Part shown: piece after piece, positions 1-11,067 of the stretch
Layout: each line of letters starts with the position of its first letter
How positions within the stretch are numbered: the first letter of the stretch is position 1
Made by a program: the position numbers and the translations under genes
Source of the DNA: a virus
Lineage: Duplodnaviria; Heunggongvirae; Uroviricota; Caudoviricetes
Virus record (IMG/VR): IMGVR_UViG_2690316002_000013
Direction: 5' to 3' (one strand)
Length of the DNA stretch: 11,067 nt
Notes under the pieces: generated by a model
What the model was told of the DNA's origin: nothing
Seen by the model: the letters and a program-made list of their open reading frames with translations, nothing else
Database searches by the model: none

Positions 1-1461
1 ATGAAAAAATTACTGCATCTTTTTTTCCCGCTCTCGCTGCGGGTACGTTTTCTGTTAGCAACGGCAGCAGTAGTATTGGTGCTTTCGCTTGCCTACGGAA
101 TGGTTGCGCTGATCGGTTATAGCGTCAGTTTCGATAAAACCACGTTTCGGCTGTTACGTGGCGAGAGCAATCTGTTCTATACCCTTGCGAAGTGGGAAAA
201 CAATAAGTTGCATGTCGAGTTACCCGAAAATATCGACAAGCAAAGCCCCACCATGACGCTAATTTATGATGAGAACGGGCAGCTTTTATGGGCGCAACGT
301 GACGTGCCCTGGCTGATGAAGATGATCCAGCCTGACTGGCTGAAATCGAATGGTTTTCATGAAATTGAAGCGGATGTTAACGATACCAGCCTCTTGCTGA
401 GTGGAGATCATTCTATACAGCAACAGTTGCAGGAAGTGCGGGAAGATGATGACGACGCGGAGATGACCCACTCGGTGGCGGTAAACGTCTACCCGGCAAC
501 ATCGCGGATGCCAAAGTTAACCATTGTGGTGGTGGATACCATTCCGGTGGAGCTAAAAAGTTCCTATATGGTCTGGAGCTGGTTTATCTATGTGCTCTCA
601 GCCAATCTGCTGTTAGTGATCCCGCTGCTGTGGGTCGCCGCCTGGTGGAGTTTACGCCCCATCGAAGCCCTGGCAAAAGAAGTCCGCGAACTGGAAGAAC
701 ATAACCGCGAATTGCTCAATCCAGCCACAACGCGAGAACTGACCAGTCTGGTACGAAACCTGAACCGACTGTTAAAAAGTGAACGCGAACGTTACGACAA
801 ATATCGTACGACGCTCACCGACCTGACCCATAGTCTGAAAACGCCACTGGCGGTGCTGCAAAGTACGCTGCGTTCTCTGCGTAGTGAGAAGATGAGCGTC
901 AGTGATGCTGAGCCGGTAATGCTGGAGCAAATCAGCCGCATTTCACAGCAAATTGGCTACTACCTGCATCGTGCCAGTATGCGCGGCGGGACATTGCTTA
1001 GCCGCGAGCTGCATCCGGTCGCCCCACTGCTGGACAATCTCACCTCGGCGCTGAACAAAGTGTATCAACGCAAAGGGGTCAATATCTCTCTCGATATTTC
1101 GCCAGAGATCAGCTTTGTCGGTGAGCAGAACGATTTTGTCGAGGTGATGGGCAACGTGCTGGATAATGCCTGTAAATATTGCCTCGAGTTTGTCGAAATA
1201 TCTGCAAGGCAAACAGACGAGCATCTCTATATTGTGGTCGAGGATGATGGCCCCGGTATTCCCTTAAGCAAGCGAGAGGTCATTTTCGACCGTGGTCAAC
1301 GGGTTGATACTTTACGCCCTGGGCAAGGTGTAGGGCTGGCGGTAGCCCGCGAAATCACCGAGCAGTATGAGGGTAAAATCGTCGCCGGAGAGAGCATGCT
1401 GGGCGGTGCGCGGATGGAGGTGATTTTTGGTCGCCAGCATTCTGCGCCGAAAGATGAATAA
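1..1461 (+). CDS. phoQ: Sensor histidine kinase PhoQ (PhoP/PhoQ two-component system), complete 486 aa
   Basis: Full-length ORF starting at window position 1. Translation shows N-terminal TM helix, periplasmic acidic patch ([11 protein letters not shown]), H-box ([12 protein letters not shown]) and HATPase motifs ([15 protein letters not shown]). Matches my recollection of E. coli PhoQ almost residue for residue. Confidence 0.97.
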
Positions 1462-1971
1462 ATATGTCCTTTTATCACCACAGCAAGGCAACCAATTGAT
1501 TTAATTAAACAACTCACACTGCAAAAAGTGCTAAAAACAGCAAATTGACTACACCATTAACTACACCGTTCGGTGCACTGTATGAAACAACGTTGAACAA
1601 ATAGACACAAGAAATATACAGGCGGGTAATCTTTCCAGGGGGAAGCGCACCAATTCATGAGGGGCGTTAATGTCGATATGGGGATCCCCATAACGGGGCT
1701 ACCAGATTTTTTTTCCGGTTAACTGTTAATCAGGCTGGTGGGCTTTACCTGTTCGGTAGGTGTTATGATTATCGTAATACCTTTCCCCCAATGGGGTAAA
1801 AGCTCCAACCGTAACGATGTTCGTTATGGTTGCCTTGATGGTCTGAGTGGTCATTTTGACCATTCAGCCAATGACCTTAATCAGAATTTTTCGCTAAAAA
1901 ATGACGTTGGCCACGTCATCCGGAAAGCACAAAATCACGTCGATTTTTAATGAACGGTTAAACCGTCTTTT

Positions 1972-2007
1972 TGTCACGGTGTGTCACTGGTTGTCACTCT
2001 CCGTCAC
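1972..2007. repeat. Four (T/C)GTCAC hexamers phased at exactly 10 bp (starts 1972, 1982, 1992, 2002)
   Basis: Read directly: ttGTCACggtgTGTCACtggtTGTCACtctccGTCACg. Helical-turn phasing is typical of arm-type recombinase/Xis sites or other cooperative DNA-binding arrays. Confidence 0.6.
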
Positions 2008-2096
2008 GATTGAGGTGGTGGACATTCTGCCCGACCGCGCATTTTTGCGCTATCGGGAATATCAAACAGTTACCGCGCCGACTTCCTCAAATTGAG

Positions 2097-2237
2097 GTTT
2101 CCGAAAATATCAGCGGGTTAGCGATTAAGCTGACGAGTAATTAAACTGCGAAAATTTCGTAGTTTGTGACTATCTGAAAGATAGTCGGTTGTTCCGGCCT
2201 CAGCCGTTGGCTGTTTCCGAAAATATCAGTAGGTTAG
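2097..2237. repeat. 26-bp direct repeat pair GTTTCCGAAAATATCAG-YR-GGTTAG (2097-2122 and 2212-2237, 24/26 identical) flanking the palindrome GACTATC-tgaaa-GATAGTC (2168-2186)
   Basis: Seen in sequence, in the non-coding stretch between phoQ and the first element gene. Confidence 0.6.
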
Positions 2238-2238
2238 G

Positions 2239-2262
2239 CCAAAGCTCAAAAATGAGCTTTGG
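2239..2262 (-). other. Perfect 10-bp inverted repeat CCAAAGCTCA-aaaa-TGAGCTTTGG, 16 bp 3' of the 93-aa gene; weak terminator or protein-binding palindrome
   Basis: Seen in sequence. No strong U-tract follows on either strand, so the terminator reading is tentative. Confidence 0.35.
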
Positions 2263-2277
2263 AACAATATCAACAAG

Positions 2278-2559
2278 TTACCGCCGTAACCGCTCCGGCT
2301 TCTTCCAGTGGTACGTAATTTTCTCCGTTTCCCGATACAGTGCCACGCGGCGATTGTAGGCCAGCATTTCAAGAACGCGGATCCGTATGTTGCGCATATC
2401 CACATCATTAAGCTGGATACCATCACGGCGCATCACCTCAGCAACAACACGCGCATAATTTTCGGCTGTCACGCTGTCCGGCTGCGTGGCCTGTTCGTCA
2501 GTCTGCTGGCTGATTCCACCAGCACGGCGGATTAATCCCAGTATTTCGGCTTCTGTCAT
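2278..2559 (-). CDS. Hypothetical small phage-type protein (93 aa), function unknown
   Basis: Intact ORF co-directional with the other element genes; its start lies about 34 bp from the cos-1 inverted-repeat arm. No family recognised by eye. Confidence 0.5.
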   Translation of the reverse strand: MTEAEILGLIRRAGGISQQTDEQATQPDSVTAENYARVVAEVMRRDGIQLNDVDMRNIRIRVLEMLAYNRRVALYRETEKITYHWKKPERLRR

Positions 2560-2592
2560 TGTGCACCCATCGTTCTGATTGTCTGGTGTCGT

Positions 2593-2795
2593 CGGGTCCT
2601 TCCTGGAATTATGGACCCGTTACGGGGCGGCGACCTCGCGGTTTTTATCTGTTTATGAAAATTTTCCGGCAAAAGTCAGATCCGTTCTTCTTCTCTGTAA
2701 CAGACTGTTTAACAATGAAAATATTAAAAAAAGAAAGGATCTGACACGAGGCATTTTAGCCAGAAAATGCCATTATCAGATCCTTTCTCATTTTT
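2593..2795 (+). other. Lambda-type cohesive-end site cos-1: cosQ-like arm, cosN (GGGCGGCGACCT, 2625-2636) and cosB with R3/R2/R1-like repeats (GATCCGTTCTTC 2679-2690; GAAAGGATCTGA 2733-2744; AGATCCTTTCTC 2778-2789)
   Basis: 2619-2700 closely follows the phage lambda left end as I recall it (GGGCGGCGACCTCGCGGGTTTTCGCTATTTATGAAAATTTTCCGG...CCGTTCTTCTTC). Orientation is cosN then cosB toward higher coordinates. Confidence 0.8.
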
Positions 2796-2815
2796 GTTCA
2801 ATAATTGCGCGTCTG

Positions 2816-3358
2816 TTACTCGCCTTTCTTCTGTAGCAACTTTTCCGGTACGTTTCCGGTTGTTTCTTTCAAGTAATCAGTCAGTATCTGTGGGAGGTTG
2901 TCGGCAACTCTGGCACTGGCATTACAGGCTTTAACCACTTCCCTTTTAAGCCTATCCAGCATGGCGGGGGTAATCTGTGGGAAGCTCCTTTGCATAGTAA
3001 GCGGGAGGCTGTCCATGATTGATGAAATCTGACTCGCCAGCTTTGAAAGCGCGTACAGGCAAAACTCAGTATCAATCACGTCACCGCGATCGCGCTCGTT
3101 TTTAAGTTCCTGCGCCTCCGCCTGTGCTGTCAGTAATCTGATCCTGACTCGTAAGAGTTCATCATCATCAATATCGCCTTTGTCGTTTGTAAGCTGGCTA
3201 ATTGCATTGTTAACCCTATTGTCTATCACGCTGGCAACATCATAAAACGCCTCACGGCCTTTACGTTCAACGGGAGTCACTCCCCACTTGTCGAACGCTG
3301 TCGCACTTACACGGCAGCTTTTCGCCATGTTTTTTTTGTTCATCAGGTGCGATTTCAT
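2816..3358 (-). CDS. Terminase small subunit, lambda Nu1 family (180 aa ORF; true start may be the internal Met at 3341-3343)
   Basis: Translation aligns by eye with lambda gpNu1: LLTAQAEAQELKNERD vs LTRAQADAQELKNARD, and TEFCLYALSKLASQISSIMDSLPLTMQRSFP vs TAFCTFVLSRIAGEIASILDGLPLSVQRRFP. Sits directly downstream of cos-2, the canonical cos-then-Nu1 arrangement. No strong Shine-Dalgarno at either candidate ATG. Confidence 0.9.
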   Translation of the reverse strand: MKSHLMNKKNMAKSCRVSATAFDKWGVTPVERKGREAFYDVASVIDNRVNNAISQLTNDKGDIDDDELLRVRIRLLTAQAEAQELKNERDRGDVIDTEFCLYALSKLASQISSIMDSLPLTMQRSFPQITPAMLDRLKREVVKACNASARVADNLPQILTDYLKETTGNVPEKLLQKKGE

Positions 3359-3534
3359 TAATACACCAACTTAATTACTGCTTCAGGTTGGTGTATTGTT
3401 TGCATCTTTCCCTTTTTATTCATAAAGATAGATCAAACAACGAAACCACCACCACCCCCCTGAAAAGGCTCATAAATAGCGAAAAACCGCTAGGTCGCCG
3501 CCCCGTAACGGGCCATAATTCCAGGAAGGACCCG
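3359..3534 (-). other. Second lambda-type cos (cos-2), inverted: cosN complement AGGTCGCCGCCC at 3492-3503, cosQ-like arm to 3534, degenerate cosB and a 9-bp-stem hairpin (3364-3397) just upstream of terS
   Basis: Reverse complement of 3485-3534 matches 2593-2641 with only two differences (one 1-bp indel, one mismatch). Similarity to cos-1 and to lambda fades inside cosB. Confidence 0.75.
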
Positions 3535-3535
3535 T

Positions 3536-3557
3536 AAAAAAGCCGGATTTCTCCGGC
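3536..3557 (-). terminator. Intrinsic terminator closing the head operon (minus strand: GCCGGA-gaaa-TCCGGC then TTTTTT)
   Basis: GC-rich 6-bp stem, 4-nt loop, U6 tract, 7 bp after the stop of the 137-aa gene. First of three near-identical copies. Confidence 0.6.
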
Positions 3558-3563
3558 CTTGTC

Positions 3564-3977
3564 TCAGATGGTTTTCAGTATGCGATCGATGTCGCCGTCA
3601 TCGCCCTGGTTTCTGCCATCGTATGCCATGCCAGCTGATACGGCTTGCGGGCTGTGCATGTCCATAAAGTTTTCAAAGGCTGCGGTAAGTTCCGGCGCAA
3701 CCTTCGGACGTTCCTGCTCTATGGTCATGCTAAGGATGCTTTTAGCCGTACCAACATCGATACAAGGCACGTTTGCCATTGCACGCAACAGCGGCTGATA
3801 GTCTTTATGCTCATGAAGCGCCATAATCGCATCAGCGCGCGGCTTGTCCTGCTCTTCCAGTTTGTTTAGTTGATATACGGCCTCATAGGTTGATAAACCT
3901 CTGTCAGCCATTGCCCGCGCTTCGACTTTAAATTTACTCGCCAGCGGTAGCGTCATGATGCTTTCATTCGTTGCCAT
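3564..3977 (-). CDS. Hypothetical protein (137 aa) between the decoration gene and cos; possible packaging or head-completion factor
   Basis: Intact ORF with strong SD (AGGGGGAA) 12 bp after the decoration gene stop. No similarity recognised to lambda FI, FII, W or Nu3 by eye. Confidence 0.65.
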   Translation of the reverse strand: MATNESIMTLPLASKFKVEARAMADRGLSTYEAVYQLNKLEEQDKPRADAIMALHEHKDYQPLLRAMANVPCIDVGTAKSILSMTIEQERPKVAPELTAAFENFMDMHSPQAVSAGMAYDGRNQGDDGDIDRILKTI

Positions 3978-3989
3978 CGTTCCCCCTGC

Positions 3990-4325
3990 TTATCGGGCCA
4001 GCGGCTGAACGGATACGCCGGAACCCGCAAAGGCGGCGCATTTTTTCGCATCGGTGTCGACGCTCTCAGGCCAGTTAACGGCGGCAATATTGAATATCCC
4101 CGTCTTGTAACACTGTGCTGATTTCTGCTTTGACGTGCCCACAGGGTACGAGGTCAGATAAACAGCCTTGCCAGATTCCTGACCATCCCACGGCTTAAAC
4201 TCGCCATTGTCTGCCAGCATCAGCGGGGTAAATTCCTGAATAACGCCAGCATCAGCGGCAAAATGTACCAACGTCGTGGATACCTGCTGACTGCCTGCAA
4301 ATAACTCAATGTATGGAGTGTCCAT
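3990..4325 (-). CDS. Head decoration protein, lambda gpD family (111 aa)
   Basis: Aligns with lambda gpD: TPLMLADNGEFKPWDG vs TPLMLDTSSRKLVAWDG, CYKTGIF vs FYKSGTF, KKCAAFAGSGVSV vs KKRTAFAGTAISIV. SD GGGGGGA upstream, 12 bp after the capsid gene stop. Confidence 0.9.
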   Translation of the reverse strand: MDTPYIELFAGSQQVSTTLVHFAADAGVIQEFTPLMLADNGEFKPWDGQESGKAVYLTSYPVGTSKQKSAQCYKTGIFNIAAVNWPESVDTDAKKCAAFAGSGVSVQPLAR

Positions 4326-4337
4326 AGAATCCCCCCG

Positions 4338-5393
4338 TTAACCAATTTTGACGGTAACAAATTTGCGAATATCTGCCGGTACCGGCTGCGGTGCACTGTG
4401 TGTCTGCACGTACTCAATCGCCGGATCGCCGTCCTCAATCCAGTTTTTCGGGTAAAACATGTTTTGTGTTGCGCCCGTTCTTACCGCTTCCTGATCCATT
4501 ATCGCACCATAGGCCACCAGCCCTTTATTGTTGGTGTTACCCAGGACCAGCAAATCAGGCTCAAGGAAATATTTTTCGGTACCATCGCTGTCAGTGTATT
4601 TGCCGGAATAGACGATAAGGGCCAGATCACCAAGATAGCCTTTAAAGCTCACCACTTCGCCCAGGTTTTTACAGGCCAGTTCGGCGGCGGATTCTGAACC
4701 ACGGGAAAGATCGTACAGCTCACGGAATTTTTTAAAGCTGCCTAATGTGCGCCATACCTCAGCGCCCATAATCATGACGTTTGCGGGGCAACCAGCCTGA
4801 TCAGCATAAAGCTCGATGTCATAGATTGGGTCGTGCATGTCTTTATCCTGCTCGGACCATTTTTTACCCTTGGCCTGCTCTATGATGCAGTTTTCCGGTA
4901 TTTTCCAGTCGATTTCATAGCGTTCTATGCCTTCGCCCTCAATGATGTTTTTTCCGGTCGTTACCGCATTCACCGCCAGCCATTCCACGCGTGCCTTAAT
5001 GGCGTTTATCTGGCGGCGCATGTTGCCAGTAATCAGGCGCATACGGCGATAGGTAGGGTCGTTAAGCTGTGCCGGATCTTCTCCAGCCATGCGCATGATG
5101 GTTTTCGTTGGATCGATTTCGTGCTTTGGCTTCATGTAGCCAGGTTTGATTGTGCTGGTTTCGTACCCTTTATCGCGCTGAACCTGGCTACCCACCATAG
5201 GCGAACAAAACGCCGACATGGTGACTTCTTCAATGTCCAGGGTATCCAGCATGATGTTTTGCGTGCTGAATGTCGCCACGTTCGGGAAAAACAGCGTGGT
5301 AAACAGAGGGCTGAATTTAAAATCCGCAATATCCCCGCGATTCAGGTACATGAAAAGCTGGTTAGTGTTAAGTGCCGTTGCTTTGCCTGCCAT
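4338..5393 (-). CDS. Major capsid protein, lambda gpE family (351 aa)
   Basis: Extensive by-eye alignment with lambda gpE (FKFSPLFTTLFF vs FKFDPLFLRLFF; PGYMKPKHE vs PGYVKPKHE; DPTYRRMRLI vs DPAYRRRRII; VSFKGYLGDLALIVYSGKY vs VSYKGMYGDVAIVVYSGQY; LVLGNTNNKGLVAYG vs MVLGNTQARGLRTYG; YPKNWIEDGDPA vs YPKNWVTTGDPA). Confidence 0.95.
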   Translation of the reverse strand: MAGKATALNTNQLFMYLNRGDIADFKFSPLFTTLFFPNVATFSTQNIMLDTLDIEEVTMSAFCSPMVGSQVQRDKGYETSTIKPGYMKPKHEIDPTKTIMRMAGEDPAQLNDPTYRRMRLITGNMRRQINAIKARVEWLAVNAVTTGKNIIEGEGIERYEIDWKIPENCIIEQAKGKKWSEQDKDMHDPIYDIELYADQAGCPANVMIMGAEVWRTLGSFKKFRELYDLSRGSESAAELACKNLGEVVSFKGYLGDLALIVYSGKYTDSDGTEKYFLEPDLLVLGNTNNKGLVAYGAIMDQEAVRTGATQNMFYPKNWIEDGDPAIEYVQTHSAPQPVPADIRKFVTVKIG

Positions 5394-5599
5394 TATTCAC
5401 CCCCATAATTTTTATGCATCCCAAGCGCCGCAAGTAAATAAGAGCGTACAAGTGAACCTATCGACGGCTCCGGCGTCATCAGCGGATCCAGTCCAGCCGC
5501 AACGCCAGCTTCATAGTTTTTTTTGTGGCGCTGCTTGAGCACCTCCACGATTTCGGGGCTTATGTACACCGAAACACCGCCTTTTTTCTCTTCAGCCAT
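5393..5599 (-). CDS. Small ribbon-helix-helix-like protein (about 68 aa from Met at 5597-5599), translationally coupled to the capsid gene
   Basis: SD AGAGGA precedes the ATG at 5597-5599. Its stop overlaps the capsid start (TAATG). The segment KGGVSVYISPEIVEVLKQ looks like an RHH beta-strand plus helix; this is an inference from the pattern, not a search. Confidence 0.55.
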   Translation of the reverse strand: MAEEKKGGVSVYISPEIVEVLKQRHKKNYEAGVAAGLDPLMTPEPSIGSLVRSYLLAALGMHKNYGGE

Positions 5600-5631
5600 A
5601 GTAAGAAATTCCTCTTCGACTAAAAAAATCA

Positions 5632-5690
5632 TAACTGGATGTTTATCCAGTCCTGATTATAATCAGAATTGCATTTTATGCAATGATATT
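5632..5690 (-). promoter_or_regulatory. Candidate promoter/operator region of the RHH-capsid operon with three palindromes: CTGGAT-gttt-ATCCAG (5635-5650), TGATTATAATCA (5654-5665), TTGCAT-ttt-ATGCAA (5669-5683)
   Basis: Seen in sequence. TATAAT lies inside the central palindrome on both strands, and TTGCAT/ATTGCA sits 15-16 bp away as a possible -35. Confidence 0.45.
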
Positions 5691-5764
5691 GAGTTATGTT
5701 GCAAATTATGAAATGATTATCCCGATCACGAACGCCAGTGCATCCAAAAACCTCATATGCAAAA

Positions 5765-5802
5765 GCCCGATAAGAACCCTCTGACCTTATCGGGCTTTTT
5801 TT
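5765..5802 (+). terminator. Plus-strand intrinsic terminator (GCCCGATAAG ... CTTATCGGGC then T6)
   Basis: 10-bp GC-rich stem followed by TTTTTT on the plus strand only, although every annotated gene nearby is on the minus strand. Confidence 0.55.
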
Positions 5803-5808
5803 GGGCGC

Positions 5809-5830
5809 AAAAAAGCCGGATTGCTCCGGC
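5809..5830 (-). terminator. Intrinsic terminator after the 74-aa gene (GCCGGA-gcaa-TCCGGC then T6 on minus strand)
   Basis: Second copy of the AAAAAAGCCGGATTKCTCCGGC module. Confidence 0.6.
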
Positions 5831-5850
5831 TATGTGTGCTGTGTGCTGGC

Positions 5851-6075
5851 TCAGTCTCTGATCTCTTTCAGAAATTCTATCAATGCATCTATCTGTTCAG
5901 GATTTACCGCCAGCATTTCACCGGATAGAGCACATCTCACAAAACCATGCTGATCCTTTTCAATCAGTGCGCCCGTCTCCAGGAATGCGCGGTAATCATT
6001 GATGCTCATCGTCTCCATGTTGTCAGCATGGTATTTATCACGCTGTTTTAATATCTCATCAAATTTCATCGGCAT
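5851..6075 (-). CDS. Hypothetical protein (74 aa), stand-alone unit bounded by terminators
   Basis: Intact ORF with SD AGAGGA 9 nt before the ATG. No family recognised. Confidence 0.55.
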   Translation of the reverse strand: MPMKFDEILKQRDKYHADNMETMSINDYRAFLETGALIEKDQHGFVRCALSGEMLAVNPEQIDALIEFLKEIRD

Positions 6076-6171
6076 TGTTTTTTTCCTCTGTTGTGTCTGT
6101 TTGTTTCAGATAGTAACTATGCCTGACCGTGACGAAAACCCGGTAATGCGCCATACCGTTTCAACTGGTGC

Positions 6172-6194
6172 AAAAAAAGCCGGATTTCTCCGGC
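6172..6194 (-). terminator. Intrinsic terminator after the PerC-like gene (third copy of the GCCGGA-tttc-TCCGGC module with A/T tract)
   Basis: Hairpin 6179-6194 preceded on the plus strand by A7 (U-tract on the minus strand), 8 bp after the stop. Confidence 0.6.
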
Positions 6195-6201
6195 TGTTTG
6201 A

Positions 6202-6474
6202 TTAGCTGTCCTGGTAATTGCGCCATATTTCATCACCAGCACCATCTATACCCATTTCGGCATAAGTGCGATCGACTGCCTTTTTCAGGTCTCCGAAATT
6301 ATCCGGCGGCTCCGGTGCCCTCTGTGCCTTCCTTGAACATTCCAGCCGTCGCATCGTGATGTGATGCCGTTCCTTGTCTGTCTCCACCAGCTGCATGACT
6401 TCACCCCATCGCGCCGCCGCCCTCCGGTAAAAGCCTTTCGCCTCCAGTTCCTCCGCTATGCGGTCATGTACCAT
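6202..6474 (-). CDS. PerC-family transcriptional regulator homologue (about 90 aa from Met at 6472-6474)
   Basis: N-terminal MVHDRIAEELEAKGFYRRAAARWGEVM fits the conserved PerC/Pch signature as I recall it. Strong SD GGGGGTGA upstream. The longer 130-aa ORF in the track would overlap the SSB gene. Confidence 0.75.
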   Translation of the reverse strand: MVHDRIAEELEAKGFYRRAAARWGEVMQLVETDKERHHITMRRLECSRKAQRAPEPPDNFGDLKKAVDRTYAEMGIDGAGDEIWRNYQDS

Positions 6475-6484
6475 CGTCACCCCC

Positions 6485-6895
6485 TCAGAACGAAATATCA
6501 TCACCGTAAGAGTCATCGCCTCCCGCTGGTGGCTGATTACCCTGTGTGCCTGTGGTTTTGCGTCTGTTCCCGCCTGGACGTGCCGCGCGGGCACTGATTA
6601 CGCTGTCTGCGATAACCTGCCAGCCCTGCCGCGTTTCTCCGTTCTGTCCGGTCCACTGGCTTACCTGCATCGTGCCGGATACGCTGGCAACATCGCCTTT
6701 TTGATGTTTAGCCAGGAAGTCGGCCTGTTTGCCAAATGCGATGACCGATAACCATAACGTCGCCTGTCCGTCCTGTGCCTGGCTGCATGGCAAAGATACC
6801 GCCATACGCGCCAGCGTCATCGGTGTGCCCTTGCTGGTCTGTTTTACCTGCGGGTCGTCCACCAGCCGCCCGTAAGCGGCTATCTGTGCCGTCAT
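6485..6895 (-). CDS. Single-stranded DNA-binding protein (SSB family, 136 aa)
   Basis: OB-fold-like core (LWLSVIAFGKQADFLAKHQKGDVASVSGTMQVSQWTGQNGETRQGWQVIADSV), Gly/Pro/Gln-rich linker and acidic tail ...GDDSYGDDISF resembling the canonical SSB DDDIPF tip. SD GGAGAGG upstream. Confidence 0.8.
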   Translation of the reverse strand: MTAQIAAYGRLVDDPQVKQTSKGTPMTLARMAVSLPCSQAQDGQATLWLSVIAFGKQADFLAKHQKGDVASVSGTMQVSQWTGQNGETRQGWQVIADSVISARAARPGGNRRKTTGTQGNQPPAGGDDSYGDDISF

Positions 6896-7143
6896 AATTC
6901 CACCTCTCCGGTTTTAACGTTGATGGTTGTTACCTGTTCCGCTTCGGCAATCTCCCGTTCTGTCAGCGTGGCAAAGTTTGCCGCCGCCGTGGTCATGAAT
7001 GCGCTTATCAGGTCGGGATGTTCCTTCGCGTATCCTTCCCGCGTGTGGCGGTCTATCGTTCTGATTGCCACCTTTAAGGTGTGCTCAGTCATGTCTAACG
7101 CTTTATATTTTGGCTCTGTTCTGTCTCTGCGTTTTTGGGTCAT
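6892..7143 (-). CDS. Hypothetical small protein (about 83 aa from ATG at 7141-7143), translationally coupled to ssb
   Basis: Its stop overlaps the ssb start (ATGA). The track's longer ORF begins at a GTG. No family recognised. Confidence 0.5.
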   Translation of the reverse strand: MTQKRRDRTEPKYKALDMTEHTLKVAIRTIDRHTREGYAKEHPDLISAFMTTAAANFATLTEREIAEAEQVTTINVKTGEVEL

Positions 7144-7149
7144 TTCTCG

Positions 7150-7345
7150 CAACCTCTCACTTTTTCGCCTCACTTTTTCAAGCGTCTCACTTCGTCGCAG
7201 TTGGGATTTTCGGTTTTTCTATGTGTGTGTTTCATAAGTATTTTTTTACCCCTCACTTTTGAGGATGTATACAGGTCGAAAAGTGAGGGAGAGCGGGCTA
7301 ATTTTGGCCCTCTTTCTATCCCCCTCGCTTTTGCTCCTCACTTTT
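7150..7345. repeat. Iteron array, candidate replication origin: about 7 copies of CTCAC(T)TTT (7156, 7169, 7186, 7252, inverted at 7279-7288, variant CTCGCTTTT at 7324, 7337) plus an AT-rich stretch (7214-7248)
   Basis: Counted directly in sequence. Includes a convergent pair CCTCACTTTT / AAAAGTGAGG around GTATAC. Lies immediately 3' of the RepA-like gene; the last iteron overlaps its stop codon. Confidence 0.6.
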
Positions 7346-8385
7346 ATAGCGGCGCTACATCATCCCCATCGATACGAATAACCCCATCTTTTTCCAGCTT
7401 GTACAGCCAGCGCCGGAAGTTTTTCATTTCATACCCCAGCTTTTTCATGTCATCACGTAACAGCGGGATCGTGCACTTGTCGCCGTTCTGTGTGCGTGAA
7501 CGGATGCACCCCCATAGCGCGGTATGGTTTTCCGTCTTGTTCCCTGCCTCCTCGATGCGCTCCAGTTCAACAGGAGGGCGCGGATCATCCACCACCACCA
7601 GCGACGTGATTAATTCACCGTCAGCGTCGGTAAAAAGCTCCACCACGCGTAAGTCATATGCGGCTTCTTTGAGTTCCTCCGCGTCCTTCATTTTGGTGCA
7701 TGAGATAACCAGCGCTTCGCTTCCTGCGTCCTCCCTGCGTATCCGGTATTCAGCATCCAGCGAAGCACGAAATGCACTGGAACCGCGCGCGCCTTTCGTC
7801 TCATCCTTGCCGGAATGGTGAACCACCAGCACCGTGGCCCCTGTGCGTCGTTTCAGTTCGTCACAACCACGGATAAACGCCCCATATCACGGGAATCATT
7901 TTCATCATTCCCACCAAAGCAACGCGCCAGCGTATCCAGAATAATCATGCGTACAGGTTTACCCGTTTCCCGCTCCACCTGACGGGCAGCGATAACCATT
8001 TCATCAACATCAAGCGGGGCAGCCGGAAAGATGGGGCGGTTTACCAGATACAGATTTTTCACCTGCTCATCGTGCACAACCTCCCAGGCTTTTACACGAC
8101 GCGGAACACCTATACCGCCTTCACCAACCACATAGAGAACCGCACCATGTGCAACCCTGCGGCCTCCCCACTGGCGACCAGTGGCAACATGGCACGCCCA
8201 CGATCCGGCAAGGAATGATTTATAGGACCCGCTAGCCCCGTATATGCTGCATAGCGATACCGCCGGAATAATCCCCTTAACCACGTAATCCAGTTGCGTG
8301 TCGTATCCGGTAGATCCAACGCTCATCGGTAGCGTGGTTTTTCGCTGGTGGTTTTTTTCTTCCGCCGGCTCTTTCCCGCGCACCC
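7344..8385 (-). pseudogene. RepA-like replicative ATPase (AAA_25/RecA-fold, DnaB-like helicase family) with C-terminal winged-helix-like domain; reading frame broken by a 1-nt frameshift near 7872-7877, 5' end running into the N gap
   Basis: Walker A GASGSYKS, Walker B-like MIILDTLA and the LVVHHSGKD motif lie in two different frames (tracks 7853..8623 and 7344..7832). One extra A in the run at 7875-7877 would give a continuous ...DMGRFIRGCDELKRRTGATVLVVHH... . A possible ATG start is at 8324-8326 but has no SD. Confidence 0.6.
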
Positions 8386-8616
8386 NNNNNNNNNNNNNNN
8401 NNNNNNNNNNNNNNNNNNNNNNNNNNNNNNNNNNNNNNNNNNNNNNNNNNNNNNNNNNNNNNNNNNNNNNNNNNNNNNNNNNNNNNNNNNNNNNNNNNNN
8501 NNNNNNNNNNNNNNNNNNNNNNNNNNNNNNNNNNNNNNNNNNNNNNNNNNNNNNNNNNNNNNNNNNNNNNNNNNNNNNNNNNNNNNNNNNNNNNNNNNNN
8601 NNNNNNNNNNNNNNNN
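8386..8616. other. Assembly gap (231 N)
   Basis: Run of n characters. Truncates the RepA-like gene on one side and the pin gene on the other. Confidence 0.99.
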
Positions 8617-9063
8617 GGTACAAAGTCCGAAAGGCCGGGACTGAAAAAACTGCTCAGGACATTATCGGCAGGTGACACGCTGGTGGTCTGGAAACTGGAC
8701 CGGCTGGGGCGCAGTATGCGGCATCTTGTCGTGCTGGTGGAGGAGTTGCGCGAACGAGGCATCAACTTTCGTAGTCTGACGGATTCAATTGATACCAGTA
8801 CCCCAATGGGGCGCTTTTTCTTTCATGTGATGGGTGCCCTGGCTGAAATGGAGCGTGAACTGATTGTTGAAAGAACAAAAGCTGGACTGGAAGCTGCTCG
8901 CGCACAGGGACGAATTGGTGGACGTCGTCCCAAACTTACACCAGAACAATGGGAACAGGCCGGACGATTAATTGCATCAGGAGTTCCTCGCCAGAAGGTG
9001 GCGATTATCTATGATGTTGGTGTGTCAACTTTGTATAAGAGGTTTCCTGCAGGGGATAAATAA
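8617..9063 (+). CDS. pin: Serine recombinase / DNA invertase of the Pin-Gin-Hin-Cin family, 3' part only (N-terminal ~35-40 codons lost in the gap)
   Basis: In-frame translation from 8617 reads GTKSERPGLKKLLRTLSAGDTLVVWKLDRLGRSMRHL...FFFHVMGALAEMERELIVERT...GRIGGRRPKLT..., closely matching e14 Pin as I recall it. Followed by mcrA as in e14. Confidence 0.9.
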   Translation, partial: GTKSERPGLKKLLRTLSAGDTLVVWKLDRLGRSMRHLVVLVEELRERGINFRSLTDSIDTSTPMGRFFFHVMGALAEMERELIVERTKAGLEAARAQGRIGGRRPKLTPEQWEQAGRLIASGVPRQKVAIIYDVGVSTLYKRFPAGDK

Positions 9064-9169
9064 AGTTAAAGACACTTTGTGTACAAAAGAAAGTAAAACA
9101 ACAGCAACTTGTTGCAATTTTATCAATAAAAGTAGTATTGTCGTGAAAAATTGATTAAAGATTAATATT

Positions 9170-10003
9170 ATGCATGTTTTTGATAATAATGGAATTGAAC
9201 TGAAAGCTGAGTGTTCGATAGGTGAAGAGGATGGTGTTTATGGTCTAATCCTTGAGTCGTGGGGGCCGGGTGACAGAAACAAAGATTACAATATCGCTCT
9301 TGATTATATCATTGAACGGTTGGTTGATTCTGGTGTATCCCAAGTCGTAGTATATCTGGCGTCATCATCAGTCAGAAAACATATGCATTCTTTGGATGAA
9401 AGAAAAATCCATCCTGGTGAATATTTTACTTTGATTGGTAATAGCCCCCGCGAGATACGCTTGAAGATGTGTGGTTATCAGGCTTATTTTAGTCGTACGG
9501 GGAGAAAGGAAATTCCTTCCGGCAATAGAACGAAACGAATATTGATAAATGTTCCAGGTATTTATAGTGACAGTTTTTGGGCGTCTATAATACGTGGAGA
9601 ACTATCAGAGCTTTCACAGCCTACAGATGATGAATCGCTTCTGAATATGAGGGTTAGTAAATTAATTAAGAAAACGTTGGGTCAACCCGAGGGCTCCAGG
9701 AAACCAGTTGAGGTAGAAAGACTACAAAAAGTTTATGTCCGAGACCCGATGGTAAAAGCTTGGATTTTACAGCAAAGTAAAGGTATATGTGAAAACTGTG
9801 GTAAAAATGCTCCGTTTTATTTAAATGATGGAAACCCATATTTGGAAGTGCATCATGTAATTCCCCTGTCTTCAGGTGGTGCTGATACAACAGATAACTG
9901 TGTTGCCCTTTGTCCGAATTGTCATAGAGAATTGCACTATAGTAAAAATGCAAAAGAACTAATCGAGATGCTTTACGTTAATATAAACCGATTACAGAAA
10001 TAA
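9170..10003 (+). CDS. mcrA: 5-methylcytosine-specific (type IV) restriction endonuclease McrA, HNH family, 277 aa
   Basis: Translation matches my recollection of E. coli K-12 McrA along its whole length; C-terminal HNH/zinc motif (CENCG...HHVIPLSSGG...CPNCH). AT-rich gene typical of horizontally acquired DNA. Confidence 0.95.
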   Translation: MHVFDNNGIELKAECSIGEEDGVYGLILESWGPGDRNKDYNIALDYIIERLVDSGVSQVVVYLASSSVRKHMHSLDERKIHPGEYFTLIGNSPREIRLKMCGYQAYFSRTGRKEIPSGNRTKRILINVPGIYSDSFWASIIRGELSELSQPTDDESLLNMRVSKLIKKTLGQPEGSRKPVEVERLQKVYVRDPMVKAWILQQSKGICENCGKNAPFYLNDGNPYLEVHHVIPLSSGGADTTDNCVALCPNCHRELHYSKNAKELIEMLYVNINRLQK

Positions 10004-10141
10004 AATTGTTTATTAAAGTCACATTTAAGACGTAATACCCTACAGGGTAAAAATTTTCTCTGATCTTAACTTCTGCAAATGTTAACTGCTATTTTTATGC
10101 TAAAAATGGTTATCAAAACTCAAAAACACATGTTTATAATC

Positions 10142-10178
10142 AATGAGTTATAGAAATGCTAAGGGCTAATGAGTTATA
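10142..10178. repeat. Direct repeat AATGAGTTATA x2 (10142-10152, 10168-10178) in the AT-rich arm upstream of the icdC core
   Basis: Seen in sequence. Its position 60-100 bp from the icd homology boundary would suit arm-type binding sites of an att site. Confidence 0.4.
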
Positions 10179-10236
10179 TGCAAATTAGTAAAATTATGTT
10201 GCTATCTCAAATAGTTACGATTTAGTCATCTAACTA

Positions 10237-10401
10237 ATGCTGCGCCATATGGGCTGGACTGAAGCCGCAGACCTGATTGTTAAAGGTATGGAAGGCGCAA
10301 TCAACGCCAAGACCGTAACCTATGACTTCGAACGTCTGATGGAAGGCGCTAAACTGCTGAAATGTTCAGAGTTTGGTGACGCGATCATCAAAAATATGTA
10401 A
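10237..10401 (+). pseudogene. icdC: Duplicated 3' end of isocitrate dehydrogenase gene (icdC-type fragment, 54 codons), marking an e14-type attachment site
   Basis: Translation [54 protein letters not shown] is the Icd C-terminus with two substitutions relative to the host sequence I recall (D to E, E to K). No upstream icd body is present. Confidence 0.85.
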
Positions 10402-10424
10402 TTACCACATGTGTTAAATATTAT

Positions 10425-10453
10425 AACGGGCGTATAACACGCCCGTTGTTTTT
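10425..10453 (+). terminator. Intrinsic terminator after the icd 3' fragment (AACGGGCGT-ataac-ACGCCCGTT then T5)
   Basis: 9-bp GC-rich stem and U-tract 24 bp after the stop codon. Confidence 0.65.
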
Positions 10454-10662
10454 ATAAATATGTTAACCGTTATAAAATAACGTATCAAAAGTCAAGTGAA
10501 CACATTTCAAATATCAATTTGATCGTATTGGTCTGGTGATTATTTATGGGGAGCAATAAAAAGACAGTATTAATCATCCATAGGGATAGTCTCTGCACTT
10601 TTATTTCCATTATGCTAATGCCTTACTGAATTATGAAGCATTTTTTAAGCTCCCAACTTTAG

Positions 10663-11067
10663 CTAGATTAATGGTTTATTATTTTCTACATCTTCAATAT
10701 ATAAAAGCGTATTATCAATGGCGTAGTAACTGCGTTTGTTATGATTAACATCAGTAACCCACCGGAAAACGCCAGCGCCTGCCAGTGTTGAACAGTATTC
10801 CCGAAATGTAGATTTTCCGCGAATATGAAGCAATGCGGCCTCTTTTATTTTAGCTGGGTTCTTGGTCGTACTAACTTTTAACAGGTTCCTGGTTCCTCTT
10901 AATAACAAAACCGTGTCATCGTGAGTAATAATTCTGATGTTATCCGTAGCCAGATAATAAATGTAATGTGCAATACGGTGATGTTTTAATTCTGAATAAA
11001 ACCAGGAGAAGTTTTGCTCTTTTCTCACTTGCTCAAACATCTTTTGAAAAACAACGACCTGATCCAT
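10663..11067 (-). CDS. ycgX: 134-aa hypothetical protein, probably the DUF1398-family protein YcgX by position and length
   Basis: Complete ORF whose start codon is the last three bases of the window. Assignment rests on remembered K-12 synteny (mcrA-icdC-[iraM]-ycgX) and the matching 134-aa length, not on recognising the sequence. Confidence 0.55.
   Translation of the reverse strand: MDQVVVFQKMFEQVRKEQNFSWFYSELKHHRIAHYIYYLATDNIRIITHDDTVLLLRGTRNLLKVSTTKNPAKIKEAALLHIRGKSTFREYCSTLAGAGVFRWVTDVNHNKRSYYAIDNTLLYIEDVENNKPLI

What the first reader, a model, noticed from the sequence alone, without database searches (positions are those of the whole stretch)
2278..8385. Compact lambda-family capsid/terS/cos module with its own replicon but no large terminase, portal, protease, tail or lysis genes: candidate capsid-encoding lambdoid satellite
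All element genes share one strand and run RepA-like ATPase, iterons, small ORF, SSB, PerC-like, 74-aa ORF, RHH, gpE-like capsid, gpD-like decoration, 137-aa ORF, cos, Nu1-like terS. The ORFs are intact, closely spaced, carry SD sequences and translational coupling, and each unit ends in an intrinsic terminator, which argues for a maintained module. The order E, D, X, cos, terS cannot be produced from the lambda order (Nu1-A-W-B-C-Nu3-D-E) by deletion alone. As I recall the defining gene sets, it fits neither P4-like (psu/delta/sid/alpha), classical PICI (Pri-Rep, AlpA) nor capsid-forming PICIs (which carry portal, protease and TerL). An element that keeps only capsid, decoration protein and small terminase could borrow a helper's portal, protease, TerL and tail while imposing its own shell and cos specificity. 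An integrase or regulatory end may be hidden by the gap.
Basis: partly seen in the sequence, partly recalled or inferred. Interest (0 to 1): 0.85.

Follow-up and report, generated by a model that had tools for sequence, protein, structure and literature searches.

The report
Known E. coli phage satellite (PICI)
This is a copy of an already catalogued E. coli phage-inducible chromosomal island (EcCIRM12579 type, sister of the well-studied EcCICFT073) that parasitises lambda-like phages, so it is a real satellite but not a new kind.

Summary
The interpretation as a new satellite class fails.

- **Identity.** The block is 97-100% identical in protein to EcCIRM12579. That 11.2-kb PICI is listed in Table S1 of Fillol-Salom et al. 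2018, between ycfD(roxA) and phoQ, with att core GGACATATTT. The core is in the window at 1460-1469.
- **What the gap hides.** Closed genomes show the integrase, AlpA and RgdR there, and no portal, TerL, protease, tail or lysis genes.
- **Family definition.** Int, AlpA, replicase, capsid gene and terS are the five core components used to define PICIs.
- **Sister element.** EcCICFT073 sits at the same site with 96-97% identical capsid, decoration and 137-aa proteins. Knocking those genes out did not stop its transfer, and its DNA was packaged in phage-sized heads.

Points I did not find in the papers read:
- The 137-aa ORF is a Nu3-like scaffold domain.
- There are two inverted cos sites.
- terS replaces Rpp inside a swappable cassette.
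- repA carries a 1-nt frameshift.
- The gap is a scaffold join to the e14 prophage.

The parts
1460..1469 (-). att core GGACATATTT (phoQ-proximal end of the island), overlapping the phoQ stop codon
   Evidence: The only exact match in the window. The same 10-mer flanks EcCIRM12579 as direct repeats 11,212 bp apart. It is listed as the att core in PMC6092414 Table S1.
1470..2277 (.). Non-coding variable tail of the island. Includes a 210-bp segment (1868-2077) absent from the O55:H7 and CFT073 alleles.
   Evidence: The segment is present in 60 complete genomes. No Rfam match.
2278..2559 (-). 93-aa conserved ORF of unknown function (last gene of the island)
   Evidence: phrog_1561, E=1e-55. 91% identical to the last EcCICFT073 ORF. 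No phage match by tblastn.
2593..2800 (+). cos2: cosQ/cosN repeat (cosN 2625-2636) plus a lambda-type cosB. R-box-like repeats CAGATCC[G/T]TTCT lie at 2677-2688 (+), 2732-2743 (-) and 2777-2788 (+).
   Evidence: 89.5% identical to the phage 21 cosN/I2 region.
2816..3358 (-). Nu1-like small terminase, 180 aa
   Evidence: PF07471, E=2.4e-23. phrog_57, E=5e-53. 35% identical to lambda Nu1, 46% to N15 gp1, 97% to EcCIRM12579 TerS. Not an Rpp.
3359..3534 (-). cos1: cosQ/cosN repeat (cosN 3492-3503) plus a short island-specific cosB directly upstream of terS
3533..3562 (-). Intrinsic terminator after the head genes (first of three similar copies)
   Evidence: Repeat family D1.
3564..3977 (-). 137-aa Nu3-like scaffold-domain protein (c1501 homologue)
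   Evidence: Matches the C-terminus of phrog_53 (head protease/scaffold), E=6e-9. Matches the last ~85 aa of PhiR12 gpC/Nu3 at 39% identity (tblastn E=4e-5; pairwise E=3e-11). No match to lambda's own Nu3.
3990..4325 (-). gpD-like head decoration protein (c1500 homologue)
   Evidence: PF02924, E=6e-17. 97% identical to CFT073.
4338..5393 (-). gpE-like major capsid protein (c1499 homologue)
   Evidence: PF03864, E=2e-49. 96% identical to CFT073 and 43% to lambda E. At most 47% identical to any phage record. dN/dS 0.14.
5393..5599 (-). 68-aa ORF, overlapping the capsid start codon by one base (79 aa if started at 5632).
   Evidence: phrog_3255. RefSeq calls it 68 aa. No Pfam or NCBIfam hit.
5806..6075 (-). 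74-aa ORF (5851-6075) with its terminator (5806-5835). This insert is absent from EcCICFT073.
6170..6474 (-). PerC-family regulator (6202-6474, 90 aa) with its terminator (6170-6199)
   Evidence: PF06069, E=1e-42. Terminators. 100% identical to the EcCIRM12579 PerC.
6485..6895 (-). SSB
   Evidence: PF00436, E=2e-16.
6892..7143 (-). 83-aa ORF of unknown function, overlapping the SSB start
   Evidence: phrog_1231. RefSeq annotation.
7155..7345 (.). Putative replication origin: six AAAAGTGAGG iterons immediately 3' of repA
   Evidence: 0 of 200 shuffles reach 6 matches..
7344..8385 (-). C-terminal ~347 codons of the RepA/AAA_25 replicase. Truncated by the N gap, and frameshifted by a 1-nt deletion in the G-run at 7880-7883.
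   Evidence: 1042 of 1042 nt identical to EcCIRM12579 repA apart from the single deletion. Sequence shown. PF13481, E=2e-43, on the full-length orthologue.
8386..8616 (.). Run of 231 N. A scaffold join, not a small internal gap.
   Evidence: The right side is pinE-mcrA-icd'. In closed genomes repA is followed by rgdR, small ORFs, alpA, int and roxA.

Best explanation
The block is the phoQ-proximal two-thirds of a classical Gram-negative phage-inducible chromosomal island (PICI). It is of the type catalogued as EcCIRM12579 and is an allelic sister of the model island EcCICFT073.

**Shown here.**
- It is integrated at the GGACATATTT core that overlaps the phoQ stop codon.
- In closed genomes the element is 11.2 kb and runs int, alpA, Icd-like and small ORFs, rgdR (DUF4222), repA, ori iterons, ssb, perC, capsid E-like, D-like, Nu3-like, cos1, terS, cos2, 93-aa ORF.
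- It is flanked by roxA and phoQ and has no TerL, portal, protease, tail or lysis genes.

**Inferred from experiments on EcCICFT073.**
- A lambda-family cos helper phage switches on alpA.
- The island then excises, replicates from its own replicase and iteron origin, and is packaged from its cos sites by the helper's terminase into helper-made virions.

**Inferred here for this allele.**
- EcCICFT073 uses Rpp to re-target the helper's TerS. This island instead carries a full-length Nu1-type TerS.
- Its N-terminal DNA-binding half travels with the adjacent cosB, and its conserved C-terminal half presumably recruits the helper's gpA-type TerL.
- cosN is identical to that of lambda and phage 21, so a lambda-type TerL can cut it.

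**Unresolved.** The E-like/D-like/Nu3-like head trio is conserved under purifying selection. In the sister island it is dispensable for transfer and for interference with lambda, so its role is unknown.
For: **Identity with a catalogued PICI.**
- Window proteins are 97-100% identical to those of EcCIRM12579 (L005).
- That element, its 11.2-kb size, its att core and its ycfD-phoQ site are listed in Table S1 of PMC6092414.
- The att core is in the window at 1460-1469, and direct repeats lie 11,212 bp apart in L005.

**Closed copies.**
- They show a tyrosine integrase, AlpA (PF05930, E=5e-17), DUF4222/RgdR and an AAA_25 replicase.
- The core genes roxA and phoQ lie on either side.

**Relation to EcCICFT073.**
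- It is at the same site with the same order, and its E, D and 137-aa proteins are 96-97% identical.

**Packaging and replication signals.**
- Two exact lambda cosN sites in inverted orientation flank terS, as published for EcCICFT073 cos1 and cos2.
- Iterons lie 3' of repA.

**Family definition.** The five PICI core components are int, regulator, pri-rep, capsid gene and terS (PMC10085698).

**Conservation.**
- The head module is in 592 and the terS cassette in 595 of 5426 complete genomes.
- dN/dS is 0.14 for the capsid gene.

**TerS domain logic.** The RM10466 allele shares the C-terminal half, but has a phage-21-like N-terminal half together with phage-21-like R boxes in its cos1.
Against: - The window itself holds no int or alpA. 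They are inferred from orthologous closed copies, and the DNA after the gap belongs to another prophage.
- repA is frameshifted in this assembly, so this copy may be replication-defective unless that is a homopolymer sequencing error.
- No experiment on a terS-type E. coli PICI was found in the papers read. The TerS-TerL recruitment step rests on analogy with SaPI TerS and on domain architecture.
- The replicase is a RepA/AAA_25 helicase, not the primase-type Pri-Rep of EcCICFT073. The 2018 paper does report four allelic Pri-Rep variants in E. coli PICIs; I did not check whether this RepA/AAA_25 type is one of them.
Confidence: 0.93

Rival explanations
1. A new class of capsid-encoding lambdoid satellite. 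It builds its own shell from its E-like, D-like (and Nu3-like) proteins on a borrowed helper portal and protease, and packages itself through its own terS and cos.
For: - The island encodes a coherent shell set: capsid, decoration and, newly recognised here, a Nu3-like scaffold domain.
- The set is under purifying selection and widely conserved.
- These proteins are at most 47% identical to any phage homologue in the phage collection, so they form an old, island-specific lineage.
- Only three helpers (phage 4, lambda, phi80) were tested on the sister island.
Against: - The gene set is the published PICI core set, not a new class.
- In EcCICFT073, whose proteins are 96-97% identical, several knock-outs all left transfer intact: capsid replaced by cat, capsid deleted, decoration deleted, and the tetA marker inserted in c1501.
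- All of that island's packaged DNA was phage-sized, and its authors found no phenotype for c1499.
Confidence: 0.05
2. A decaying remnant of an ordinary lambdoid prophage (cryptic prophage).
For: - The homologous region in O157 and CFT073 was historically annotated as a cryptic prophage, CP-933C/CP073-3 (PMC3378721).
- repA is frameshifted in this copy.
Against: - Closed copies are 11.2 kb, bounded by att repeats and core genes, with no phage remnants alongside.
- The gene order E, D, Nu3-like, cos, terS cannot arise from the lambda order by deletion.
- The genes are intact across hundreds of genomes, with low dN/dS.
- No near match exists in 50,697 phage records apart from about 100 bp of cos.
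- The sister island is experimentally mobile.
Confidence: 0.01
3. A capsid-forming PICI (cf-PICI), or a P4-like satellite.
For: - A cf-PICI, EcCIEDL933/OI-51 (15.4 kb), occupies the same ycfD-phoQ site in O157:H7 EDL933 and Sakai.
- The integrase and AlpA are P4-like.
Against: - No portal, protease, head-tail connector, HNH or TerL is in the window or in closed copies.
- No Psu, Delta, Sid or P4-alpha-type primase was detected.
Confidence: 0.01

Closest known systems
EcCIRM12579 (E. coli O55:H7 RM12579; Fillol-Salom et al. 2018, Table S1)
   Same: - Same site and att core, same gene content and order.
- Proteins are 97-100% identical, except the 93-aa ORF at 89%.
- repA DNA is identical except for 1 nt.
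   Different: - The window copy has an extra 210-bp non-coding segment at 1868-2077.
- terS is 97% identical, not 100%.
- repA carries a frameshift.
- The assembly is incomplete beyond repA.
EcCICFT073 (model Gram-negative PICI; helpers: resident phage 4, lambda, phi80)
   Same: - Same att site and the same architecture.
- E, D, 137-aa and SSB proteins are 96-97% identical, and the 93-aa ORF 91%.
- Two inverted cos sites with lambda cosN.
- A PerC gene is present.
   Different: - The packaging cassette differs: a Nu1-type TerS (180 aa) replaces RppA (144 aa), and both cosB regions differ.
- A RepA/AAA_25 replicase replaces the primase-type Pri-Rep.
- There is an extra 74-aa ORF.
cf-PICI EcCIEDL933 (OI-51/CP-933C/Sp7)
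   Same: Same chromosomal site and a related int/alpA/rep left arm. It encodes a capsid protein and TerS.
   Different: The cf-PICI also has portal, protease, head-tail connectors, HNH and TerL, and it makes its own small capsids. None of these genes is present here.
SaPI-type pac islands with their own TerS, and SaPIbov5 Ccm (a capsid homologue)
   Same: Works alike in principle. A satellite-encoded TerS redirects helper TerL to satellite DNA, and a satellite-encoded capsid homologue is present.
   Different: These are Gram-positive elements with unrelated sequences, using pac rather than cos for the TerS types. Ccm causes size redirection, whereas no phenotype has been found for the E. coli PICI capsid gene.
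Helper-embedded PICI 11capE (PMC10111431)
   Same: A Gram-negative PICI that carries a lambda-E-family capsid gene and a cos site.
   Different: It integrates inside the helper's capsid gene and lacks terS. The present island sits in the chromosome at roxA-phoQ and has terS.

Membership tests
Gram-negative PICI (Fillol-Salom 2018; SatelliteFinder core set) | Tyrosine integrase at one end | tested here: met
   Not in the window (hidden by the gap). Present in orthologous closed copies L001, L005 and L007: 409 aa, PF00589 and PF13356.
Gram-negative PICI (Fillol-Salom 2018; SatelliteFinder core set) | AlpA-type regulator downstream of int, transcribed in the same direction | tested here: met
   A 62-aa protein in L005, PF05930, E=5e-17. 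Not in the window itself.
Gram-negative PICI (Fillol-Salom 2018; SatelliteFinder core set) | Own replication protein, with the origin immediately 3' of it | tested here: met
   RepA/AAA_25 replicase. Six AAAAGTGAGG iterons at 7155-7345, directly after its stop codon. Caveat: the type is RepA, not primase-type Pri-Rep, and the gene is frameshifted in this copy.
Gram-negative PICI (Fillol-Salom 2018; SatelliteFinder core set) | Capsid (morphogenesis) gene | tested here: met
   gpE-like gene at 4338-5393, PF03864, E=2e-49.
Gram-negative PICI (Fillol-Salom 2018; SatelliteFinder core set) | Small terminase and/or cos site for packaging | tested here: met
   Nu1-like terS and two exact lambda cosN sites.
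Gram-negative PICI (Fillol-Salom 2018; SatelliteFinder core set) | No tail, holin/lysis, portal or head-tail connector genes | tested here: met
   The window ORFs and the closed copies bounded by phoQ and roxA contain none.
Gram-negative PICI (Fillol-Salom 2018; SatelliteFinder core set) | Integration at a PICI-specific att site; size about 10-15 kb; unidirectional transcription | tested here: met
   GGACATATTT at roxA(ycfD)-phoQ, the published site of EcCICFT073 and EcCIRM12579. The att repeats are 11,212 bp apart. All island genes are on one strand.
Gram-negative PICI (Fillol-Salom 2018; SatelliteFinder core set) | Induction by a helper phage and high-frequency helper-dependent transfer | not testable with these tools
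   Shown experimentally only for the sister island EcCICFT073.
Rpp-type packaging subtype (EcCICFT073, RppA/B/C) | Rpp protein (144-153 aa) between cos1 and cos2 | tested here: not met
   The slot holds a 180-aa Nu1 homologue. It has no BLASTP match to RppA at E<=0.01, and no PDB sequence match at E<=1 other than six marginal, unrelated chains; I expected the published RppC structure to be in that library but did not confirm it.
cf-PICI | Portal, prohead protease, head-tail adaptor/connector, HNH and TerL | tested here: not met
   None in the window or in closed copies. Definition taken.
P4-like satellite | psu-delta-sid operon, epsilon, and alpha primase-helicase | tested here: not met
   No such Pfam or annotated products in the window or in L005. 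Only int and AlpA are P4-like.
Lambdoid prophage (complete or remnant) | Contiguity with TerL, portal, protease, tail and lysis genes, in lambda gene order | tested here: not met
   Closed copies are flanked directly by core genes. Megablast against 50,697 phage records finds only about 100 bp of cos.

The most novel reading that the evidence does not exclude
With some helper phage not yet tested, the conserved E-like, D-like and Nu3-like trio assembles, or co-assembles with helper proteins, into island-specified shells on the helper's portal and protease. Alternatively it rescues helpers whose own capsid gene is disabled. Either would make terS-type classical PICIs a functional intermediate between classical PICIs and cf-PICIs. 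In this reading, the [cosB1-terS/rpp-cosB2] segment bounded by inverted cosN repeats is an exchangeable specificity cassette that sets which helpers can be exploited.
Probability: 0.12. Interest if true: 0.55.

Novelty: already known. Interest (0 to 1): 0.12.

Why it matters
As a discovery it matters little. The element type, its att site, its capsid and decoration genes, its paired cos sites and its satellite lifestyle were published in 2018-2019, and it is detected routinely by SatelliteFinder.

The residual value is in the annotation details:
- The head block contains a Nu3-like scaffold domain as well as capsid and decoration genes. This sharpens a question the 2018 authors left open: they found no phenotype for the capsid gene in these islands.
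- The terS/Rpp slot behaves as a cassette bounded by the inverted cos repeats. TerS N-terminal halves travel with their cosB, which gives a concrete handle on helper specificity.

The case also shows that a scaffold gap can make a standard island look novel by hiding its int/alpA arm.

Tried and rejected
- **Rpp in the terS slot.** I tested whether the 180-aa protein is an Rpp. It has no sequence match to RppA and nothing beyond six marginal unrelated chains at E<=1 in a PDB sequence search. It is a full-length Nu1 homologue.
- **A phage source for the head and terS genes.** The best phage identities are only 46-47%. The 93-aa ORF has no phage match.
- **RNA genes.** Rfam and tRNA scans of the window found nothing in the element.
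- **The 'RHH' call and the small ORFs.** Pfam at E<=5 and NCBIfam gave nothing usable.
- **Lambda Nu3 against the 137-aa ORF.** There is no alignment. The homology is to the phage-21/PhiR12-type gpC/Nu3 C-terminus instead.
- **cos2 as a copy of a known phage's cosB.** The R-box cores differ: CAGATCC here, CGTTTCC in lambda, CATGTCGG in phage 21 and the resident CFT073 prophage, and a CATGTC-type core in PhiR5_1. No helper could be named from this.
- **Later literature.** I searched for work assigning a function to the PICI capsid genes or to terS-type E. coli PICIs and found none.
- **Not used.** Structure prediction and the large protein-database searches, because the identification did not depend on them.

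Full report
**What is in the window**

The window is a piece of an E. coli scaffold.
- phoQ occupies 1-1461 on the + strand.
- A block of co-oriented minus-strand genes runs from about 2278 to 8385.
- A run of 231 N occupies 8386-8616.
- To its right lie pinE, mcrA, a 3' fragment of icd and a DUF1398 gene, which is the right end of prophage e14.

- Nu1-like terS, 2816-3358.
- A 137-aa ORF, 3564-3977.
- gpD-like decoration gene, 3990-4325.
- gpE-like capsid gene, 4338-5393.
- A 68/79-aa ORF overlapping the capsid start.
- A 74-aa ORF, 5851-6075.
- PerC, 6202-6474.
- SSB, 6485-6895.
- A small ORF, 6892-7143.
- The C-terminal two-thirds of a RepA/AAA_25 replicase, 7344-8385.

Other features of the finding also hold.
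- Six AAAAGTGAGG iterons lie directly after repA, and 0 of 200 shuffles reach that count.
- Three near-identical terminator hairpins close the sub-units.
- An exact lambda cosN, GGGCGGCGACCT, lies between the 137-aa ORF and terS.

**What it is**

Megablast against complete E. coli genomes finds the block in 369 genomes at 80% coverage or more, including O157:H7, O55:H7 and O111:H8.

In closed chromosomes the element sits between phoQ and roxA (ycfD). It continues beyond repA with rgdR (DUF4222), five small ORFs, an Icd-like gene, an AlpA regulator (PF05930, E=5e-17) and a tyrosine integrase.

Table S1 of Fillol-Salom et al. 2018 (PMC6092414) lists exactly this element. It is named EcCIRM12579, from O55:H7 strain RM12579, at NC_017656.1 1438155-1449376. 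It is 11.2 kb, has att core GGACATATTT at site ycfD-phoQ, and carries the accessory genes rgdR and perC.

I fetched that region as L005.
- Its proteins are 97-100% identical to those of the window, apart from the 93-aa ORF at 89%.
- The att core flanks it as direct repeats 11,212 bp apart.
- The same 10-mer occurs once in the window, at 1460-1469, overlapping the phoQ stop codon.

The island therefore starts about 800 bp to the left of the coordinates given in the finding.

**Relation to the model island**

EcCICFT073, the experimentally studied Gram-negative PICI, sits at the same site with the same order. Its order is int, alpA, rgdR, pri-rep, ssb, perC, a 68-aa ORF, capsid c1499, decoration c1500, a 137-aa ORF, RppA (c1503), a 93-aa ORF, then phoQ.

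Compared with the window:
- The capsid, decoration, 137-aa and SSB proteins are 96-97% identical, and the 93-aa ORF 91%.
- The differences are confined to cassettes.
- A Nu1-type TerS replaces RppA.
- A RepA helicase replaces the primase-type Pri-Rep.
- A 74-aa ORF is added.

SatelliteFinder defines PICIs by five core components: integrase, regulator (alpA), primase-replicase, capsid-morphogenesis gene and small terminase. Elements with all five were found almost only in E. coli (PMC10085698). PMC10111431 notes a capsid gene in 21 of 29 reference Gram-negative PICIs.

That is mistaken, and the gap hid exactly the int/alpA arm that would have made the classification obvious.

The other families considered do not fit.
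- cf-PICI fails: there is no portal, protease, connector, HNH or TerL.
- P4-like fails: there is no psu, delta, sid or alpha primase.
- Prophage remnant fails: the island is bounded by att repeats and core genes, and only about 100 bp of cos matches any of 50,697 phage records.

**How it most likely works**

By homology with EcCICFT073, a lambda-family cos helper activates alpA. The island then excises, replicates from its own replicase and origin, and is packaged from its cos sites into helper-made particles.

*The packaging region.*
- There are two cosQ/cosN repeats in inverted orientation, each with a cosN identical to lambda's, at 2625-2636 (+) and 3492-3503 (-). They flank terS, as published for cos1 and cos2 of EcCICFT073.
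- Homology with EcCICFT073 breaks exactly at the inner edges of these repeats, at 2669/2670 and 3461/3462.
- So [cosB1-terS/rpp-cosB2] behaves as an exchangeable cassette.

*The two cosB regions.*
- cos2 has a lambda-like cosB. It has three R-box-like repeats, CAGATCC[G/T]TTCT, at the positions and orientations of lambda R3, R2 and R1.
- cos1, directly upstream of terS, has a shorter and different cosB.

*The TerS.*
- It is a full-length Nu1 homologue: 35% identical to lambda Nu1, 46% to N15 gp1.
- It is not an Rpp.
- A third allele at the same site, in strain RM10466 (L007), shares the C-terminal half of this TerS almost exactly.
- That allele has a phage-21-like N-terminal DNA-binding half, together with phage-21-like R boxes in its cos1.
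- This fits a model in which the N-terminal domain reads cosB1 and the island-specific C-terminal half recruits the helper's gpA-type TerL.
- That last step is inference by analogy with SaPI TerS. I found no experiment on a terS-type E. coli PICI.

**The head genes**

The 137-aa ORF is homologous to the C-terminal scaffold domain of gpC/Nu3 of phage-21/PhiR12-type lambdoid phages.
- phrog_53 C-terminus, E=6e-9.
- tblastn, E=4e-5.
- 39% identity over 83 aa to the last ~85 residues of a 501-aa protease-scaffold protein.
- There is no match to lambda's own Nu3.

The island thus carries capsid, decoration and scaffold-domain genes in the order E, D, Nu3-like.

The genes look maintained.
- The capsid protein is at most 47% identical to any phage homologue.
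- dN/dS between the window and CFT073 is 0.14 for E and 0.22 for D. It is 0.55 for the 137-aa ORF, which rests on few substitutions.
- The block is present in 592 of 5426 complete genomes.

The proposed function, an island-specified shell, was effectively tested on EcCICFT073.
- c1499::cat (capsid replaced), deletion of c1499, deletion of c1500, and c1501::tetA (by locus-tag order the 137-aa ORF, carrying the marker) all still transferred.
- Deletion of c1499 or c1500 did not relieve interference with lambda.
- All packaged DNA was phage-sized.
- The authors state they found no phenotype for c1499.

The function of this trio therefore remains open.

**Caveats about this particular copy**

- repA differs from the EcCIRM12579 allele by a single deleted G in a G-run at 7880-7883, and is otherwise identical at 1042 of 1042 nt. 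This splits the reading frame. It may be a real inactivation or a homopolymer sequencing error.
- The gap is not a short internal gap. It joins the island's repA to pinE of e14, which in real chromosomes lies on the other side of the phoPQ-icd region.
- The window has a 210-bp non-coding segment at 1868-2077 that is missing from the O55:H7 and CFT073 alleles but present in 60 complete genomes.

**Verdict**

- The 'new kind of satellite' reading is not. This is a named, catalogued member of the classical Gram-negative PICI family.
- Novelty: already known. Interest: low.
- The most novel reading still open is that the conserved capsid/decoration/scaffold trio builds or modifies shells with helpers not yet tested. 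I put that at about 0.12.

Noticed in passing
window 7880-7883 (repA): There is a single-base deletion in a G-run relative to the otherwise identical EcCIRM12579 repA (1042 of 1042 nt match). It frameshifts the replicase into two ORFs, 7853-8385+ and 7344-7832. It is either a real inactivating mutation or a homopolymer sequencing error.
   Followed up: partly
window 8386-8616 and 8617-11067: The N run joins the island's repA to the middle of pinE, followed by mcrA, an icd 3' fragment and a DUF1398 gene of the e14 region. In closed genomes these lie on the opposite side of phoPQ. Both contig ends fall in repeated mobile-element genes, so this looks like a scaffolding join and not true adjacency.
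   Followed up: partly
window 2669/2670 and 3461/3462: Homology to EcCICFT073 stops exactly at the inner edges of the two inverted cosQ/cosN repeats. The segment cosB1-terS-cosB2 (or cosB1-rppA-cosB2) therefore looks like an exchangeable cassette bounded by inverted repeats.
   Followed up: partly
L007 14003-14850 (E. coli RM10466, same att site): This is a third packaging allele, a 194-aa TerS. Its C-terminal half is nearly identical to the window's TerS. Its N-terminal half is phage-21 gp1-like and is paired with phage-21-like R boxes in cos1, while cos2 is the same as in the window. This suggests domain shuffling of TerS together with its cosB.
   Followed up: partly
window 1868-2077: A 210-bp non-coding segment lies between the att core and the last island ORF. 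It is absent from the O55:H7 and CFT073 alleles but present in 60 complete E. coli genomes. It contains partial duplicates of neighbouring sequence (2058-2076 versus 2266-2284; 2097-2121 versus 2213-2237).
   Followed up: partly
window 3533-3562, 5806-5835, 6170-6199: Three copies of nearly the same terminator hairpin (GCCGGATTTCTCCGGC plus a T-run) close successive gene units of the island.
   Followed up: no
window 10415-10563 (-): There is a weak Rfam match to the STnc150 Hfq-binding sRNA (31 bits against a gathering score of 60; E=0.0016). It lies between the icd fragment and the DUF1398 gene, outside the element.
   Followed up: no
L002 39745-39933 (CFT073 prophage at icd): The resident lambdoid prophage next to EcCICFT073 has a cos region that looks the same as phage 21's by eye (cosN plus R boxes). 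The R boxes of EcCICFT073 cos2 (CATGTCCGG) resemble that type without matching it.
   Followed up: no
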